Source of the DNA: Escherichia phage 236Ecol005PP
Strand: one strand, 5' to 3'
DNA length: 64,000 nt
Sequence record: PP434423.1
Shown here: piece by piece, positions 33,315-38,990 of the stretch
How the letters are laid out: each line of letters starts with the position of its first letter
Position numbering within the stretch: the stretch's first letter is position 1
The notes under the pieces: model-generated
What the model was told of the DNA's origin: nothing
Seen by the model: the letters and a program-made list of their open reading frames with translations, nothing else
Databases searched by the model: none
Made by a program: the position numbers and the translations under genes

Positions 33315-34106
33315 TCACATATTGTGTATAAGCACTTCAGTCTGAAATGATGCACCTTTCTTTTGCTTCCTATACATGGTTTCAAAATATTCAATTTTGA
33401 AATTATTAGAAAGGGCCCAATCTTTTAAAATATAATTATTAATATCGTCTGATAGATTATTAGTGATAATAAATTTAGACTTCGATTGTTTAATTTTGTC
33501 TAATAATTCTAATTCATCCTTTTCTTCCCAGCCTGAATATTTAAATTTAGTAGAAAGATATGGCGGGTCAATGAATAAATTTTTGTTTTCAAAATCCAAA
33601 TCTCTGAATGATTTATTACTAAATGTAAATCTGTGTTGTCTATTTTTAAATTCAGAAAATTTATCCTGCTGAGACTTATTAAAAGAAGTTCTGGAATACT
33701 TGGCTCTATTGGCGAAAGCCGCGTTATAATTCCCATTACTAGAAAATCGGATTAACGAACTGAATGAAAATAAATGTAGAACATAAAGATATAGTCCGTT
33801 TTTGGTTTTATCGTATTCTTTTGACAGATTATAAAAAGGTGCTGAATCTTTGTCATTCAAATTAAAGTCTTCAATAATTTGAACTATATCATTAATTGAA
33901 GATGATTTCATCTTATTATACATATCTATAAGAGGAGTATTAATATCATTACATATAACATCTCTCTGACAATTCATAGAAAATCCAAGACCACCACAAA
34001 AAGCATCCAAAACAGGCTTATCGTCAAAGCGGTTTGAAAATTGTCTAATAAATGGCATATACTTATGTTTTGCACCTGGATATGTTATGGCAGGTAGGTC
34101 TTTCAT
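33315..34106 (-). CDS. Dam-family N6-adenine DNA methyltransferase
   Basis: motif I FCGGLG near N-terminus, motif IV DPPY around residue 181, Dam-like region LYVLH...F..IR..NG.YN. Confidence 0.7.
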   Translation of the reverse strand: MKDLPAITYPGAKHKYMPFIRQFSNRFDDKPVLDAFCGGLGFSMNCQRDVICNDINTPLIDMYNKMKSSSINDIVQIIEDFNLNDKDSAPFYNLSKEYDKTKNGLYLYVLHLFSFSSLIRFSSNGNYNAAFANRAKYSRTSFNKSQQDKFSEFKNRQHRFTFSNKSFRDLDFENKNLFIDPPYLSTKFKYSGWEEKDELELLDKIKQSKSKFIITNNLSDDINNYILKDWALSNNFKIEYFETMYRKQKKGASFQTEVLIHNM

Positions 34107-34149: not shown

Positions 34150-35139
34150 TCATAATTTACAGGATGAACAATCTTCAGCTTTTGGAGTTTCTATTTCGTA
34201 ATCATCAGTACCGGAACCATCACGAGTATTATGATAATAGAAGTTTTTAATGCCATAATACCATCCATATAGCATGTCATCAATCATTATTGACATTGGA
34301 ACCTTTCCTTTTGGAAAAATCTGCGGGTCATAATATGTATTCGCTGAAGCTGATTGACATACCCATTTAAGCATAATAGCTACCTGCGTAAGATAAGGTT
34401 TATTACCTTTCTTAGCTAATTTCCACGTATAATCATATAGGTCTATGTTATGTTCAATATTGGGCACGACTTGATTAAAGGAACCCTCTTTTGATTCTTT
34501 AACAGAGACTGGTCCACGTGGAGGCTCGATACCATTAGTACTGTTAGAAACTTGGGAAGATGACTCACATGGCATAAGTGCTGATAATGTGCTATTACGG
34601 ATGCCAAAGAGCTTAAGGTCTTCCCGCAGCGCCGACCAGTCACAAACGTATTTTGGAGCTGCGATTTGGTCAATCTTTTTATTGTACCAGTCGATAGGTA
34701 ATTCGCCTCGAGACCAACGAGTGTCTGAATAATATTCGCAAGGTCCTTTTTCTTTGGCGAGCTTAATGGATGCTTTAATGAGTCCATACTGTAATCTCTC
34801 AAATAGTTCATGTGTTAAATCGTTAGCATCTTCATAAGAAGCAAAGTTACTTGCCAGCCAAGCTGCATAGTTAGTAACACCTACACCAAGATTTCGACGC
34901 TTTTTAGCTTTTTCTGCTTCAGGAACTGGATATCCTTGGTAATCCAAAAGATTATCAAGAGCACGAACTTGGACTTCTGCTAATTCATTAATTTTATCTT
35001 GGTCTTGCCAATCGAAGTTATCCAACACAAATGCGCTAAGGGTACAAAGCCCCACTTCTCCCTTGTTTTCAATAACTTCTATTGTAGTATACTCATCATC
35101 TTCGTAAAATTCATCTACAAATTCATAATCAATATTCAT
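34150..35139 (-). CDS. nrdA: ribonucleotide reductase alpha subunit, C-terminal piece
   Basis: contains LCTLSAF active-site segment and C-terminal CSSCKL tail; own ATG and RBS inside the 3' end of the HNH gene. Confidence 0.8.
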   Translation of the reverse strand: MNIDYEFVDEFYEDDEYTTIEVIENKGEVGLCTLSAFVLDNFDWQDQDKINELAEVQVRALDNLLDYQGYPVPEAEKAKKRRNLGVGVTNYAAWLASNFASYEDANDLTHELFERLQYGLIKASIKLAKEKGPCEYYSDTRWSRGELPIDWYNKKIDQIAAPKYVCDWSALREDLKLFGIRNSTLSALMPCESSSQVSNSTNGIEPPRGPVSVKESKEGSFNQVVPNIEHNIDLYDYTWKLAKKGNKPYLTQVAIMLKWVCQSASANTYYDPQIFPKGKVPMSIMIDDMLYGWYYGIKNFYYHNTRDGSGTDDYEIETPKAEDCSSCKL

Positions 35140-35974
35140 TTAATTCTTCTACCTTTTTTCTAGTAATTCCTAAAGCTTTAGATGCTCGATGTATTGATTG
35201 ATATTCTATACCGTTTATTTTTACAGCAATTAAGTTATGGGGTTTTAATCCCTTTGGATGAGGTTTACTGACGAAAACTAAATTATCAAGCTCTGAAATC
35301 TTATCCAATTTCTTACACTTAAATCCTTTGTGATGCGCCCGTTTACCTTTACAAACGGCTGACATCGCAGATGGATTTAAATTATGCTCTTTACAAAATT
35401 CGTTAAGACCTCGATGAATTTCCTCATGACCATCTGGAAATGTAAACACCCAAGACGTTTGAAGTCGAGATTTAACTTCTGGAGACATAGGAATACCTTT
35501 GTTCCAGGCCGGTTTGCCTTTATTATTTTCAGATACAGAAATAGCCAATTTTCTTCTAAGCCACCCATGTCGTTTATTGGTGTTCTTTCGTTCAATATTA
35601 TCTTCAGAATAAACACACATCATATTAGCGGCAAATATCAATTTATGATTATCTGGATATATCTTTACTAATAATTGATGAGCTATGTAATGCTCTTCTG
35701 GTGTCAAATCTACCAGGTTTTCCTTTGTATCAGAACCACCAATACACAGAGGTATAATATGATGTGATTCGGTATAGCAATCTAATTTTCTGTTCTTAGC
35801 TTTAGAAATAAGGTTATTGTAAATTTTAGAATAATCCATAACTTTTCCTCTTGTTATGGATTATTTATTAACGGTCTGTGTACTTTATTTGCTTTGAATT
35901 ATACCGCCAGGATTAGCTTCATAAAACTTAGCTACATCCGACTTCTTAATTTTAATTAAACGGGTTTGTTGACT
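35071..35974 (-). mobile_element. inserted HNH homing-endonuclease cassette splitting nrdA (approximate limits)
   Basis: limits set where NrdA similarity stops in the upstream ORF and resumes in the downstream ORF. Confidence 0.6.
35129..35839 (-). CDS. HNH homing endonuclease (Mob-like)
   Basis: N-terminal HNH motif (ESHHIIP...GGSD..EN...LTPEEH), NUMOD-like GKPAWNKG repeat, C-terminal HTH; strong GAGGA RBS. Confidence 0.8.
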   Translation of the reverse strand: MDYSKIYNNLISKAKNRKLDCYTESHHIIPLCIGGSDTKENLVDLTPEEHYIAHQLLVKIYPDNHKLIFAANMMCVYSEDNIERKNTNKRHGWLRRKLAISVSENNKGKPAWNKGIPMSPEVKSRLQTSWVFTFPDGHEEIHRGLNEFCKEHNLNPSAMSAVCKGKRAHHKGFKCKKLDKISELDNLVFVSKPHPKGLKPHNLIAVKINGIEYQSIHRASKALGITRKKVEELNEY

Positions 35975-37318
35975 ATTCACATCATTTGTTGGAATAGCAA
36001 TTTCACAACACAAGTTACTCTGACGAATAGGTGCTTTTTCACGAATAAATGGAGTATAGTTATTCGTATTATCAATGAACTGCACATAAATCCTTGCTGT
36101 TCCTGAGCGTTCAGTCATTAGCAATTCAAACAGTTCACGGGCTTTAATACGCTTTTTACGAATATTAGGGTCTTTTTCTGCGGCTTCATATAATTCACGG
36201 AAACGGTCTTGGTCTTTAAAATAAGAATAATAAAGCTCACCACCCATTTCATGTGGACTGAACAAAGTAATGTAGTCGTTCTTTCCAAAACGTTCCATCA
36301 TCAAATCATTCAGCTGGACGCCATAATCCATATGACGGATACGGTTTTCTTCTACACCTTTGTTATTTTTCAAAACGAGAAGATTTTCAACTTCCAAATG
36401 CCAAATAGGATAATAAGCAGTAGCAGCGCCGCCACGAATTCCACCCTGTGAGCATGATTTAACAGCAGTCTGAAAATGTTTCCAAAAAGGAATAACACCA
36501 GTATGGCGTACTTCACCTGTACCAATCTTAGAACCTTCGGCACGAATCATACCAACGTTAATACCAATTCCAGCGCGTTTGGAGATATATTCAACAATTG
36601 AAGCGGAAACCTTATTGATAGACTTCAGCGAATCACCTGCCTCAATAACAACACATGAACTAAACTGTCGAGTCGGAGTACGACAGCCAGCCATAATAGG
36701 AGTTGGCAATGAAATCTGTCGAGTAGATACTGCTTCATAAAAACGAATAACGTGTTTTAGTCTATCAACAGGTTCATCTTGATGCAATGCCATTCCAATA
36801 GTCATAAATGCAAACTGCGGAGTTTCATAAATTTGACCAGTGGTTTTATCTTTAACTAGATATTTTTCTTTTAATTGCATCGCCCCGGAATAAGTAAATT
36901 CCATATCCCGCTCATGCTTAATTTTTGATTCTAAAAATGTAATTTCTTCTGCTGAATATTTTGACAGCAGTTCAGGGTCATATTTACCTTCATTTACACA
37001 GTAAGAAATATGGTCAATAAATGAACGTGGTTCATATTGTCCGTAAACATGCTTACGAAGAGCAAACATTAAACAGCGTGCAGCTACATATTGATAATCA
37101 GGCTCTTCAACTGAAATAGAATTCGCAGCAGCCTTAATTACAATGGTTTGAATGTCATCAGTGGTCATTCCATCACGGAGATATGATTTAATATTTTCAT
37201 ATAATTCATAAGGATCTACAGATGTTCCTTCAGCTGCCCAAGATAAAACTTTAATAATTTTTTGCGGGTCAAAGCTCTGAGAAACACCACTACTTTTGAT
37301 AACATTAATTAATTGCAT
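35885..37318 (-). CDS. nrdA: ribonucleotide reductase alpha subunit, N-terminal piece
   Basis: ATP-cone and catalytic core up to SNLCCEIAIPTNDVN, then 29 unrelated codons and a stop. Confidence 0.8.
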   Translation of the reverse strand: MQLINVIKSSGVSQSFDPQKIIKVLSWAAEGTSVDPYELYENIKSYLRDGMTTDDIQTIVIKAAANSISVEEPDYQYVAARCLMFALRKHVYGQYEPRSFIDHISYCVNEGKYDPELLSKYSAEEITFLESKIKHERDMEFTYSGAMQLKEKYLVKDKTTGQIYETPQFAFMTIGMALHQDEPVDRLKHVIRFYEAVSTRQISLPTPIMAGCRTPTRQFSSCVVIEAGDSLKSINKVSASIVEYISKRAGIGINVGMIRAEGSKIGTGEVRHTGVIPFWKHFQTAVKSCSQGGIRGGAATAYYPIWHLEVENLLVLKNNKGVEENRIRHMDYGVQLNDLMMERFGKNDYITLFSPHEMGGELYYSYFKDQDRFRELYEAAEKDPNIRKKRIKARELFELLMTERSGTARIYVQFIDNTNNYTPFIREKAPIRQSNLCCEIAIPTNDVNSQQTRLIKIKKSDVAKFYEANPGGIIQSK

Positions 37319-37635
37319 AAGTCCTCAACTTGAAAATCGTCTTTAAACAATCGGTTAACTATATGAGCTATTATATCACCATGACACGGCTTTGGTTTAC
37401 ATGTGCATCCTAGCCTCATTCCACGTAAAGGCTCTAAATGTGCTTTAGTTATTTCTCCGGATTTAATTCGACGTATAAAATCTTTTTTGAATAATTCAAT
37501 GGCAGCCTCCCGGCTGCCAGCATCTTTACCGACGTAATTTCCCCAAAATGTACCGCGGTGAATATTAACATCAAAGTCGGATTTATATTTATTCACTACC
37601 TGGCATAGACGGCCCGCGCGGTAATAGTTCGTCAT
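37309..37635 (-). CDS. DUF4326-like small protein (T4 nrdA.1 position)
   Basis: FWGN...[13 protein letters not shown] pattern; ORF-track start may be over-extended. Confidence 0.5.
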
Positions 37636-37875: not shown

Positions 37876-38187
37876 TTACACCGCCATTTTTCCTTTAATA
37901 GGAGGGTGTGATTCGTAACCTTTAAGAACGAAATCTTTAGGCCTGAGTTTAAGAGTGTATTCCAATTGTTCTTTAGTAGAAAGATAGCGGAATTTATAAG
38001 GCAATCCGCCTATTACCAGTTCACAAAGCTCTTTAGGTTCACGACGTAAAATTTCTTTACATTGTTCTACGTGATTCATATAGATATGAGTATTACCACC
38101 AGAAAATATCAAATCTCCTGGAATAAGATTACACATCTTAGCTACAATATGAACTAACGCAGCATATGATGCAATATTAAATGGAAG
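37876..38187 (-). CDS. td: thymidylate synthase, exon 2
   Basis: C-terminal TS sequence; the ORF-track initial Met is the intron-terminal ATG. Confidence 0.9.
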   Translation of the reverse strand, partial: LPFNIASYAALVHIVAKMCNLIPGDLIFSGGNTHIYMNHVEQCKEILRREPKELCELVIGGLPYKFRYLSTKEQLEYTLKLRPKDFVLKGYESHPPIKGKMAV

Positions 38188-38441
38188 CATTATGTTCAGA
38201 TAAGGTCGTTAATCTTATCCCGGAATTATATCCAGCTGCATGTCACCATACAGATCAGACTATATCTCCATCTTGATGAAGCAAGATGTCTATCGTTTCG
38301 AGTCACTTGACCCTACTCCCCAAAGGGATAGTCGTTAGGCATTTAGTTCAAAAGAACATTTAGCACGGGATTGTCTACTAGAGAGGTTCCCCGTTTAGAT
38401 AGATTACAAGTATAAGTCACCTTATACTCAGGCCTCAATTA
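38188..38441 (-). ncRNA. group I self-splicing intron in td, lacking any homing-endonuclease ORF
   Basis: starts TAATTGAGGCCTGAG... and ends ...CTGAACATAATG like the T4 td intron core; exon 1 ORF stops at the intron-initial TAA. Confidence 0.85.
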
Positions 38442-38990
38442 ACCCAAGAAAACATCTACACTTCTTTGGTACCATTGTAAATCAAGATAACCATTACGCA
38501 CATTAAACTGATAGAACATATGACAGGGCGGTAATGCCATTTGATTGATTTCAGCTGGATTCCATGCTGAAACGATTTGACGTCGATCAGTTGGTAATTT
38601 TTTAATACGATCAATAGTTTCAACTAATTGATCCACACCACCGAAATCACGCCATTGTTTACCGTATATAGGACCAAGTTCACCACTATGATATCCTAGG
38701 TCTTTAGCCTGGTTTTCATAGTTATCGTCCCAAATAGTTTTACCTTGAATAAGACTACCATGAGTGCGAAGACGTAAATCATTAACATTGGTAGAACCGG
38801 AAATAAACCATAGAAGCTCAGCAATGCAAGCTTTCCAAGCGAGCTTCTTAGTCGTTACTGCAGGAAAACCTTTAGTTAAATCCCAACGTAATTTAGTACC
38901 GAACAAAGCAATTGTTCCTGTGCCTGTTCGGTCATCGGTTTCATAGCCATTTTCAAAAATGTCTTTAATTAAATCTTGGTATTGTTTCAT
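38442..38990 (-). CDS. td: thymidylate synthase, exon 1
   Basis: N-terminal TS sequence including the catalytic PPCH motif. Confidence 0.9.

What the first reader, a model, noticed from the sequence alone, without database searches (positions are those of the whole stretch)
34150..37318. nrdA is split into two ORFs by an inserted HNH homing-endonuclease gene
The N-terminal nrdA ORF (35885-37318) follows NrdA through the catalytic SNLCCEIAIPTNDVN segment, then reads 29 unrelated codons into a stop. After 45 nt comes a 236-aa HNH/NUMOD endonuclease gene with its own strong RBS (35129-35839). A second ORF (34150-35139) starts with an ATG inside the HNH 3' end, has about 23 unrelated codons, then resumes NrdA at ENKGEVGLCTLSAF and ends with the C-terminal CSSC tail. 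No NrdA sequence appears to be lost. The separate frames, stops and RBSs argue against an intein, and the flanking non-coding sequence (about 190 nt) looks too short for a group I intron core. This resembles the genes-in-pieces nrdA described for Aeromonas phage Aeh1, here in a T-even coliphage-like backbone. Both active-site halves would have to reassemble from two polypeptides.
Basis: partly seen in the sequence, partly recalled or inferred. Interest (0 to 1): 0.8.

Follow-up and report, generated by a model that had tools for sequence, protein, structure and literature searches.

The report
Homing-endonuclease cassette splits phage nrdA
A selfish endonuclease gene sits inside this T4-like coliphage's ribonucleotide reductase large-subunit gene and cuts it into two separately translated halves with conserved oppositely charged tails, which is a further member of the arrangement already worked out in Aeromonas phage Aeh1.

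Summary
On the minus strand, nrdA-a (35885-37318), an HNH gene (35129-35839) and nrdA-b (34150-35139) are colinear with an uninterrupted NrdA, and no residues are lost. The HNH protein is a full-length homologue of Aeh1 MobE (45% identity, E 5e-45). The break lies in the same hairpin loop, between the Cys439/Glu441 strand and Cys462. The "unrelated" codons are homologous to the Aeh1 tails. The a-tail is basic (core L-I-K-I-K-K-S-D-V-x-K-F, pI about 10). The b-head is acidic (Y-E-D-D-E-Y-T-T-I-E, pI about 4). Both are under purifying selection in 10 cassettes.

The cassette is 97-100% identical between Tequatrovirus and Mosigvirus backgrounds whose nrdA flanks are 66-87% identical, which indicates recent homing. 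A covarying hairpin sequesters the HNH start codon and overlaps a late-promoter-like box.

At least 32 GenBank phage records carry the arrangement. A 2022 preprint mentions such insertions as unpublished. This is a new member of a known kind and of moderate interest. Splicing was not tested directly, and the Rfam negative is uninformative.

The parts
35885..37318 (-). nrdA-a: N-terminal 449 residues of NrdA (ATP-cone, all-alpha domain, first half of the barrel with the Cys225- and Cys439/Glu441-equivalents) plus a 28-aa tail and the stop codon.
   Evidence: ORF list. Pfam PF03477, PF00317 and PF02867 positions 1-221. Alignment to E. coli NrdA residues 377-455.
35888..35971 (-). a-tail codons: QQTRLIKIKKSDVAKFYEANPGGIIQSK. 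Basic, net +4, pI 10.0.
   Evidence: Translation. Homologous tails in 10 cassettes including Aeh1. Charge. Substitutions weighted to the third codon position, pS 0.74 against pN 0.245.
35840..35884 (-). 45-nt spacer between the nrdA-a stop and the HNH start. It contains a second in-frame TAA and a conserved GTAC box (AGTACACAGA, 35875-35884) of unknown role.
   Evidence: Sequence. Spacer comparison across the family.
35862..35869 (-). Late-promoter-like box AATAAATA, a 7 of 8 match to the T4 late consensus TATAAATA. It overlaps the 5' arm of the hairpin.
   Evidence: Sequence. An exact TATAAATA sits at the same place in L006, L007 and L088. Function is inferred from the I-TevI and Aeh1 mobE precedent (PMC2988022).
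35830..35865 (-). RNA hairpin with a 13-bp stem (AAUAAUCCAUAAC / GUUAUGGAUUAUU). The Shine-Dalgarno sequence GAGGAAAA lies in the loop and the HNH AUG in the 3' arm. It is predicted to block HNH translation on read-through transcripts.
   Evidence: Predicted energy -13.8 kcal/mol. Conserved in 6 cassettes with 92.6% of cells paired against 32-42% in slid controls, and 3 pairs with compensatory changes.
35129..35839 (-). mobE-type HNH homing endonuclease gene (236 aa): an N-terminal HNH motif and C-terminal I-HmuI-like NUMOD and helix-turn-helix modules.
   Evidence: Pfam PF22083 at 1.7e-9 and PF01844 weak. phrog_655 at 6.9e-59. 45% identity over 96% of length to Aeh1 MobE, E 4.8e-45. Invariant H26, H27 and N41. 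Match to I-HmuI, PDB 1U3E.
34150..35139 (-). nrdA-b: 21-24-aa acidic head, then NrdA from the Cys462-equivalent (Cys32) through the YY radical-transfer pair and the C-terminal CSSC. Its ATG lies inside the HNH 3' end.
   Evidence: ORF list. Pfam PF02867 positions 219-523. Alignment to E. coli NrdA residues 452-526. Purine-rich SD-like sequence upstream, conserved across the family.
35077..35139 (-). b-head codons: MNIDYEFVDEFYEDDEYTTIE. With the next four residues the net charge is -10 and the pI 4.1.
   Evidence: Translation. Core motif YED[DE]EYTT conserved in all 10 cassettes. Charge. Purifying selection.
35047..35067 (-). Seven loop codons (NKGEVGL) that replace PDAEIGL of the uninterrupted allele. 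They differ at about 12 of 21 nt, so they are donor-type nrdA sequence carried in with the cassette.
   Evidence: Junction alignment to teqskov. Identical in the Mosigvirus JM17 copy.
35047..35971 (-). The whole mobile cassette (925 nt): a-tail, spacer with regulatory elements, HNH gene, b-head and donor loop codons.
   Evidence: Boundaries from the teqskov alignment. Identity plateau of 95-100% to Mosigvirus JM17 over about 36000-35101, against 66-87% in the nrdA flanks.

Best explanation
This is an Aeh1-type 'genes-in-pieces' nrdA. A 925-nt mobile cassette sits at the tip of the beta-hairpin loop that joins the Cys439/Glu441 strand to the Cys462 strand of the NrdA barrel. The cassette carries codons for a basic C-terminal tail plus a stop, a short regulatory spacer, a free-standing mobE-type HNH endonuclease gene, and codons for an acidic N-terminal head whose ATG and SD lie inside the HNH 3' end.

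Shown here:
- The anatomy and colinearity of the three ORFs.
- Homology of the endonuclease and of both tails to the Aeh1 element.
- Purifying selection on the tails.
- Near-identity of the cassette in two phage genera whose nrdA backbones have diverged.
- A conserved, covarying hairpin over the HNH start.

Inferred from the Aeh1 biochemistry and the T4 literature:
- The three ORFs are co-transcribed with nrdB.
- They associate, and the oppositely charged tails are needed to form the (a/b)2 dimer and the holoenzyme with NrdB2.
- HNH translation is blocked on early and middle read-through transcripts by the hairpin. It is released on late transcripts that start inside the 5' arm.
- In mixed infections the endonuclease cuts cassette-free nrdA alleles near the loop codons, and repair copies the cassette in.

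My own further inference is that the alternating hydrophobic/basic a-tail (L-I-K-I-K-K) and the hydrophobic/acidic b-head (T-T-I-E-V-I-E) extend the two native hairpin strands as an intermolecular beta-ribbon.
For: - ORFs and overlap.
- Colinear Pfam coverage.
- Break mapped to E. coli residues 452-455.
- Exact junction against the uninterrupted teqskov allele.
- HNH protein 45% identical over 96% of its length to Aeh1 MobE, with a graded series of relatives at 83-50% identity.
- All 9 looked-up relatives have the same nrdA-a/HNH/nrdA-b architecture, with a 1-20 nt overlap of HNH and nrdA-b.
- Tail motifs conserved in all 10 cassettes; a-tails net +4 to +7 with pI about 10; b-heads net -7 to -13 with pI 4.1. 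Aeh1 is reported at pI 10.4 and 3.8 (PMC3045599).
- Differences by codon position are 245/161/401 in the a-tail and 217/77/362 in the b-head; mean pS 0.74 against pN 0.245; both other frames contain stops.
- Cassette 97-100% identical to Mosigvirus JM17 while the flanks are 66-87% identical.
- Hairpin with 3 compensatory pairs, 92.6% of cells paired against 32-42% in slid controls.
- 32 phage records hold the whole arrangement.
Against: - There is no transcript or protein data for this phage, so separate translation, absence of splicing and enzyme activity all rest on Aeh1.
- The late-promoter box in the window matches only 7 of 8 positions.
- Cleavage specificity of the endonuclease is unknown. 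T4 MobE cuts nrdB, not nrdA (PMC2988022).
- Rfam silence over the cassette cannot be used as support, because the same search missed an ORF-containing td intron in L006.
- The beta-ribbon idea is untested.
Confidence: 0.85

Rival explanations
1. The insert is a group I (or other self-splicing) intron with the HNH gene in a peripheral loop. Splicing would restore one continuous nrdA message, and the two ORFs would be annotation artefacts.
For: - T-even phages carry group I introns in td, nrdB and nrdD. This window has one in td.
- The last base of the putative 5' exon is U (AGT), and in-frame G residues exist near the 3' junction.
- Rfam would not necessarily see an ORF-bearing intron. The control failed.
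Against: - Both flanks of the HNH gene evolve as protein. The peptide motifs are conserved at saturating synonymous divergence (pS 0.74, pN 0.245). Variation is highest at the third codon position. Both other frames contain stops.
- A conserved ATG with an SD-like sequence starts the b-head in every member.
- Only about 130 nt lie 5' and about 60 nt 3' of the ORF, and all but 45 nt of that is this conserved coding sequence.
- A splice that restores the 8-residue loop would need an intron ending in A, not G.
- In Aeh1 the tail peptides were found by MS/MS in the mature, separate polypeptides (PMC3045599).
Confidence: 0.04
2. The tails are the halves of a (degenerate) split intein, and protein trans-splicing joins NrdA-a and NrdA-b.
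For: - Fractured nrdA genes with split inteins and an intervening endonuclease gene are known from metagenomes (PMC2677866).
- Crona et al. raise a degenerate intein as one possible origin.
- RNR genes are intein hot spots. L088 has a true intein 10 residues upstream.
Against: - The tails are only 28 and about 21 aa, far shorter than split-intein halves.
- Neither fragment has a Hint/intein Pfam match. The real intein in L088 is detected.
- There is no conserved Cys/Ser at the start of the a-tail and no His-Asn before the resuming extein.
- The Aeh1 proteins keep their tails and remain two chains, an a/b heterodimer of about 91 kDa.
Confidence: 0.03
3. The insertion simply killed nrdA. The fragments are decaying pseudogene pieces and the phage relies on host NrdAB.
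For: - T4 nrdA is non-essential in nrd+ hosts (listed as auxiliary in PMC5931544).
- No activity data exist for this phage.
Against: - Both halves are intact and keep every catalytic residue: C222, C437/E439, C32 of the b piece, the YY pair and the C-terminal CSSC.
- The split form persists in lineages whose HNH proteins have diverged to 45-58% identity, with NrdA still 54-74% identical and full length.
- The tails are under purifying selection.
- The Aeh1 split enzyme has wild-type-like specific activity (PMC3045599).
Confidence: 0.07

Closest known systems
Aeromonas phage Aeh1 nrdA-a / mobE / nrdA-b (Friedrich et al. 2007 PNAS; Crona et al. 2011 NAR, PMC3045599)
   Same: - Same gene and the same loop between the Cys439/Glu441 strand and Cys462.
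- Homologous full-length HNH protein (45% identity).
- The HNH 3' end overlaps the nrdA-b start (11 nt here, 14 nt in Aeh1).
- The spacer is 45 nt here and 46 nt in Aeh1.
- Homologous basic a-tail and acidic b-head.
- A hairpin lies over the endonuclease ribosome-binding region.
   Different: - Host and backbone differ: Tequatrovirus/Mosigvirus coliphages here, Cinqassovirus there.
- The hairpin pairs with the AUG and leaves the SD in the loop. In Aeh1 the stem covers the SD itself.
- The cassette here is demonstrably recent and shared between genera.
- No biochemistry exists for this copy.
T4 mobE (free-standing HNH gene between nrdA and nrdB; Wilson & Edgell 2009, PMC2790892)
   Same: Same endonuclease superfamily and the same RNR operon neighbourhood. 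The N-terminal HNH domain is about 35-55% identical in T4-type copies (hits H57, H78, H79, H85).
   Different: - T4 mobE is intergenic, does not split a gene, and cuts nrdB.
- Its C-terminal region is not conserved with the window protein.
- In this window the intergenic slot holds a Dam-like methyltransferase instead.
T4 mobA splitting the topoisomerase large subunit into genes 39 and 60 (bioRxiv 10.1101/2022.08.31.505936)
   Same: A related Mob HNH gene lies inside an essential enzyme gene. The split products carry conserved C- and N-terminal extensions and reassemble.
   Different: The target gene is different. The MobA element also carries the 50-nt translational bypass, and nothing comparable is seen here.
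I-TevI in the T4 td group I intron (regulation)
   Same: An RBS-occluding hairpin plus a late promoter placed so that late transcripts lack the 5' arm (PMC2988022).
   Different: I-TevI is a GIY-YIG enzyme inside a self-splicing intron. Here no intron core is evident, and host-gene function is restored at the protein level.
Fractured genes with split inteins and an intervening endonuclease gene (Dassa et al. 2009, PMC2677866)
   Same: nrdA is broken into two ORFs with an endonuclease gene between them.
   Different: Those rely on trans-splicing split inteins. Here there is no Hint domain and the tails are retained.

Membership tests
Aeh1-type MobE-split nrdA (genes-in-pieces class Ia RNR) | nrdA is broken in the hairpin loop between the Cys439/Glu441 strand and Cys462, with no loss of NrdA sequence. 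| tested here: met
   The N piece aligns to E. coli NrdA up to residue 455 and the C piece from residue 452. Junction against the uninterrupted teqskov allele. Aeh1 has Cys431 in the a piece and Cys31 in the b piece, against Cys437 and Cys32 here.
Aeh1-type MobE-split nrdA (genes-in-pieces class Ia RNR) | The intervening free-standing HNH gene is homologous to Aeh1 MobE over its full length. | tested here: met
   P0013 (Aeh1 MobE): 45% identity, 96% coverage, E 4.8e-45. The 13-sequence alignment has 44 invariant columns spanning both domains.
Aeh1-type MobE-split nrdA (genes-in-pieces class Ia RNR) | Basic C-terminal tail on NrdA-a and acidic N-terminal tail on NrdA-b. | tested here: met
   Net charge and pI are +4 and 10.0 for the a-tail, and -10 and 4.1 for the b-head. 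The motifs are shared with Aeh1. Purifying selection.
Aeh1-type MobE-split nrdA (genes-in-pieces class Ia RNR) | The endonuclease gene overlaps the nrdA-b start, and nrdA-b has its own initiation region. | tested here: met
   The overlap is 11 nt in the window and 1-20 nt across the family. An SD-like purine run lies 7-14 nt upstream in all members.
Aeh1-type MobE-split nrdA (genes-in-pieces class Ia RNR) | [quoted passage not shown] | not testable with these tools
   Only indirect evidence is available: coding-type conservation of the flanks and no intein domain. It was shown experimentally only for Aeh1.
Aeh1-type MobE-split nrdA (genes-in-pieces class Ia RNR) | The split enzyme is active as (a/b)2 beta2, and the tails are required. 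| not testable with these tools
   Inferred from Aeh1 and from long-term retention of intact halves and tails.
Aeh1-type MobE-split nrdA (genes-in-pieces class Ia RNR) | Endonuclease expression is restrained by an RNA structure over the ribosome-binding region, together with a late promoter. | tested here: inconclusive
   The hairpin is present and covaries. The promoter box in the window matches only 7 of 8 positions of TATAAATA, though it is exact in L006, L007 and L088. No transcript mapping is available.
Group I intron carrying a homing endonuclease ORF | A conserved catalytic core (P3-P8) is detectable by a covariance model. | tested here: inconclusive
   There is no RF00028 match at E<=10 over 35000-36000, while the ORF-less td intron scores 72.7 bits. 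However, the ORF-containing td intron of L006 is also missed, so the negative is uninformative.
Group I intron carrying a homing endonuclease ORF | Sequence flanking the ORF is structured non-coding RNA and not a selected peptide. | tested here: not met
   The flanks show third-position-biased change, pN/pS of about 0.33 at saturated pS, and stops in both other frames. The peptide motifs are conserved down to 45% HNH identity.
Intein / split intein | A Hint-domain splicing module (or its split halves) is fused in frame to the extein ends, with Cys/Ser at the N junction and His-Asn followed by Cys/Ser/Thr at the C junction. | tested here: not met
   Neither fragment has an intein or Hint Pfam hit. 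The tails are 28 and 21 aa. No junction residues are conserved. Positive control: the true intein in L088 nrdA-a is detected.
HNH homing endonuclease (I-HmuI-like) | A beta-beta-alpha-metal HNH motif plus a NUMOD-type DNA-binding module. | tested here: met
   H26, H27 and N41 are invariant and H50 and H54 nearly invariant. PF22083 at 1.7e-9. PF01844 scores 18.2 bits, below its 21.4 cut-off. phrog_655 at 6.9e-59. Aligns to I-HmuI 1U3E residues 86-169.
HNH homing endonuclease (I-HmuI-like) | Site-specific cleavage of the cassette-free allele, leading to homing. | not testable with these tools
   The only evidence is indirect: a cassette identity plateau of 97-100% inside nrdA flanks that are 66-87% identical.

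The most novel reading that the evidence does not exclude
The tail-stop / regulated mobE / start-head cassette may be a self-contained 'split-and-staple' mobile element, a third route beside introns and inteins for making an insertion into an essential gene harmless. On this reading the element carries its own conserved pair of oppositely charged peptides. These would extend the severed beta-hairpin as an intermolecular ribbon and could work as a portable heterodimerisation tag. The conserved GTGTACA box in the spacer could be an operator that mimics the homing site, as in I-TevI autorepression. The coliphage copies would make all of this testable in E. coli/T4 genetics.
Probability: 0.3. Interest if true: 0.6.

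Novelty: new member of a known kind. Interest (0 to 1): 0.35.

Why it matters
When Aeh1 was characterised, its split RNR was presented as unique: none of 1200 nrdA sequences was split, and the tails had no database match (PMC3045599). This window shows the same element in T-even coliphages. The tails travel with the endonuclease gene as conserved, selected parts of one cassette. That favours the 'inherited with the element' origin over in-situ evolution.

The element is also currently mobile between Tequatrovirus and Mosigvirus. This gives an E. coli-tractable system for several experiments: homing crosses, tail mutagenesis, mapping the cleavage site, and testing how two short peptides rescue a fractured active site.

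The gain is incremental. The mechanism is known, at least 32 GenBank genomes already annotate the pieces, and a 2022 preprint mentions such insertions with conserved extensions as unpublished.

Tried and rejected
- Rfam cmscan over the cassette gave nothing at E<=10. I first read this as evidence against an intron. The control on L006, whose td intron contains an I-TevI ORF, also gave nothing, so I dropped the argument.
- The all-representatives phmmer search with the 40-aa b-head returned only 2 hits, one a 73-aa fragment. A word-indexed search with 60 aa returned 1 hit. Neither measures how diverse the family is.
- The IMG/VR scan with the HNH profile gave 79 loci. Only Aeh1 was a full-length relative with the tail motifs.
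- My first guess at the Aeh1 nrdA position (175-225 kb) was wrong. The locus was later obtained through the MobE protein.
- The Friedrich 2007 PNAS paper is not held, so statements about RT-PCR in Aeh1 are not cited from it.
- The sigma-70 promoter and terminator scan was no better than shuffles.
- In-frame read-through from nrdA-a into HNH was considered, because the two share a frame. I rejected it because there are two in-frame TAA codons and because Aeh1 is out of frame.
- Literature searches for a description of the coliphage split nrdA found none, apart from a passing 'unpublished' remark.


Full report
**Observation**

The region was read on the minus strand. It holds three ORFs.
- nrdA-N, 35885-37318, 477 aa.
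- An HNH gene, 35129-35839, 236 aa.
- nrdA-C, 34150-35139, 329 aa.

A 45-nt spacer separates the nrdA-N stop from the HNH ATG. The HNH gene and nrdA-C overlap by 11 nt.

Pfam places the ATP-cone, the all-alpha domain and barrel profile positions 1-221 in the N piece. It places barrel positions 219-523 in the C piece. Against E. coli NrdA (PDB 1RLR), homology of the N piece stops at residue 455 and homology of the C piece starts at residue 452. The two ORFs are therefore colinear halves and nothing is missing.

The closest uninterrupted allele is that of phage teqskov (locus L001). It reads ...IPTNDVNS-PDAEIGL-CTLSAF. The window reads ...NDVNS followed by QQTRLIKIKKSDVAKFYEANPGGIIQSK and a stop. 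It resumes as MNIDYEFVDEFYEDDEYTTIEVIE-NKGEVGL-CTLSAF. The insert is 925 nt (35047-35971) and replaces 21 nt.

nrdA-N and the HNH ORF share a frame and are separated by two TAA codons. In Aeh1 they are out of frame, so I treat the shared frame as coincidence.

**What the middle gene is**

The 236-aa protein matches the I-HmuI NUMOD-like domain (1.7e-9) and, weakly, the HNH domain. It also matches phrog_655 'homing endonuclease' (6.9e-59) and I-HmuI itself.

In the 5.8-billion-protein search, the best named full-length relative is MobE of Aeromonas phage Aeh1, at 45% identity over 96% of the length and E 4.8e-45. A graded series of unnamed relatives at 83-50% identity precedes it. The 13-sequence alignment keeps H26, H27 and N41 and the whole C-terminal DNA-binding part. 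The enzyme is probably active.

**Context of the relatives**

I looked up nine relatives.
- Aeh1 (L005).
- Mosigvirus JM17 (L003).
- Seven metagenomic contigs (L006, L007, L087-L091).

Every one sits between an nrdA-a piece and an nrdA-b piece. Complete nrdA-a pieces are 473-485 aa. L088 is 614 aa because it also carries an intein, and L007 is cut by the contig end. Complete nrdA-b pieces are 323-329 aa, and L089 is cut by the contig end. The spacer is 38-81 nt, and the HNH 3' end overlaps the nrdA-b start by 1-20 nt.

In GenBank phages, 32 records hold the whole arrangement. They are annotated as two RNR pieces plus a homing endonuclease. About 34 records encode the protein at 80% identity or more.

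**The tails**

The 'unrelated' codons are not unrelated.
- The a-tails share the core x-K-x-L-[IVF]-K-[IV]-[KR]-K-[SKC]-[DE]-[VI]-x-x-F.
- The b-heads share Y-E-[IF]-V-x-E-F-Y-E-D-[DE]-E-Y-T-T-[ILV]-[EQ]-[VI].
- Both cores are present in Aeh1.
- All a-tails are basic, net +4 to +7 with pI 9.6-10.6.
- All b-heads are acidic, net -7 to -13 with pI 4.1.

This matches the pI of 10.4 and 3.8 reported for Aeh1 (PMC3045599).

Across the family, nucleotide differences by codon position are 245/161/401 in the a-tail core and 217/77/362 in the b-head core. Between 40% and 43% of differing codons are synonymous. Mean pS is 0.74, which is saturated, against pN of 0.245. Both alternative frames contain stops. 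Both flanks are therefore translated peptides under purifying selection.

In Aeh1 these tails were found by MS/MS in the mature, separate polypeptides. Deleting them lowered activity about 2000-fold by preventing (a/b)2 and holoenzyme formation.

**Mobility**

I compared the window with Mosigvirus JM17. The nrdA flanks are 66-87% identical per 100 nt. The stretch from about 36000 to 35101 is 95-100% identical, with intermediate values in the 100 nt on each side. This is the signature of a recently transferred cassette with short co-conversion tracts.

The seven loop codons NKGEVGL differ from the resident PDAEIGL at about 12 of 21 nt. They are identical in JM17, so they came in with the cassette.

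**Regulation**

Immediately upstream of the HNH ATG, a 13-bp stem (35865-35853 with 35842-35830) places the SD in the loop and the AUG in the stem. The predicted energy is -13.8 kcal/mol.

In six cassettes the helix is 92.6% paired, against 32-42% when the partner is slid. Three pairs change on both sides, tracking the second codon of the HNH gene. The sample is small.

A TATAAATA box overlaps the 5' arm in L006, L007 and L088. The window has AATAAATA. This matches the scheme described for I-TevI and for Aeh1 mobE, in which read-through transcripts are translationally silent and late transcripts lack the 5' arm (PMC2988022). The promoter function is inferred.

**Rivals**

*Intron.* Rfam finds the ORF-less td intron in this window (72.7 bits) and nothing in the cassette. 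It also misses the ORF-containing td intron in L006, so I do not use this result. The case against an intron rests on three points.
- The flanks show coding-type conservation.
- The ATG and SD of the b-head are conserved.
- The Aeh1 protein data show separate chains that keep their tails.

*Intein.* Neither fragment has a Hint domain, whereas the true intein in L088 is detected. The tails are too short and lack junction residues.

*Pseudogene.* The halves and all catalytic residues persist in lineages whose endonucleases have diverged to 45% identity.

**Comparison with what is known**

This is the same element family as Aeh1 nrdA-a/mobE/nrdA-b.

The differences are these.
- The backbone is a T-even coliphage, with the best match Escherichia phage FL33 at 97.7% identity.
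- The hairpin geometry differs from Aeh1.
- There is clear evidence of recent spread between genera.

No paper in the held library describes the coliphage copies. [quoted passage not shown] I therefore rate this a new member of a known kind.

**Verdict**

It is of moderate interest, mainly as a tractable E. coli-phage instance, and because it shows that the tails are a conserved part of the mobile cassette.

Noticed in passing
window 38188-38441 (minus strand), within td 37876-38990: The thymidylate synthase gene is interrupted by an ORF-less 254-nt group I intron. Rfam RF00028 scores 72.7 bits, and the boundaries are ...TTGGGT|taattgagg...cataatg|CTTCCA. Relatives (FL33, JM17, L006) carry an I-TevI-type GIY-YIG ORF in the same intron.
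   Followed up: partly
window 33315-34106 (minus strand): A D12-class (Dam-like) DNA adenine methyltransferase gene lies between nrdA-b and nrdB. This is the intergenic slot that holds mobE in T4. The close relative FL33 lacks it, and L087 has a NUMOD3 endonuclease gene there.
   Followed up: partly
window 35875-35884 (minus strand); the same position in L005-L007 and L087-L091: A conserved GTGTACA-type box lies in the spacer just after the nrdA-a stop in all 10 cassettes. It shares TGTAC with the Cys462-Thr codons of the homing site. The Aeh1 spacer shares the 10-mer GTGTACGTTA with the teqskov nrdA target. It may be an operator or a relic of the target site, but this is unexplained.
   Followed up: partly
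L088 1107-2951: In this metagenomic relative, nrdA-a carries a mini-intein at the catalytic cysteine (CLSGDS...VHN|C). The mobE cassette follows 10 residues downstream, so there are two different selfish elements within about 40 nt of coding sequence.
   Followed up: no
L006 383-1395 (td intron with I-TevI ORF): Rfam cmscan at E<=1 does not report this ORF-containing group I intron. Covariance-model silence is therefore not evidence against introns that carry large ORFs.
   Followed up: yes
window 37309-37635 (minus strand): A DUF4326 ORF (108 aa, phrog_464) overlaps the nrdA-a start by 10 nt. The same family precedes nrdA in L087, L090 and L091 and follows nrdB in L007.
   Followed up: no
P0003 (Escherichia phage UFV-AREG1 HNH) in alignment A1: This endonuclease looks mosaic. 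Its N-terminal 75 residues diverge, while much of the remainder (about residues 77-130 and 200-236) is identical or nearly identical to the window protein. That suggests recombination within the HNH gene.
   Followed up: no
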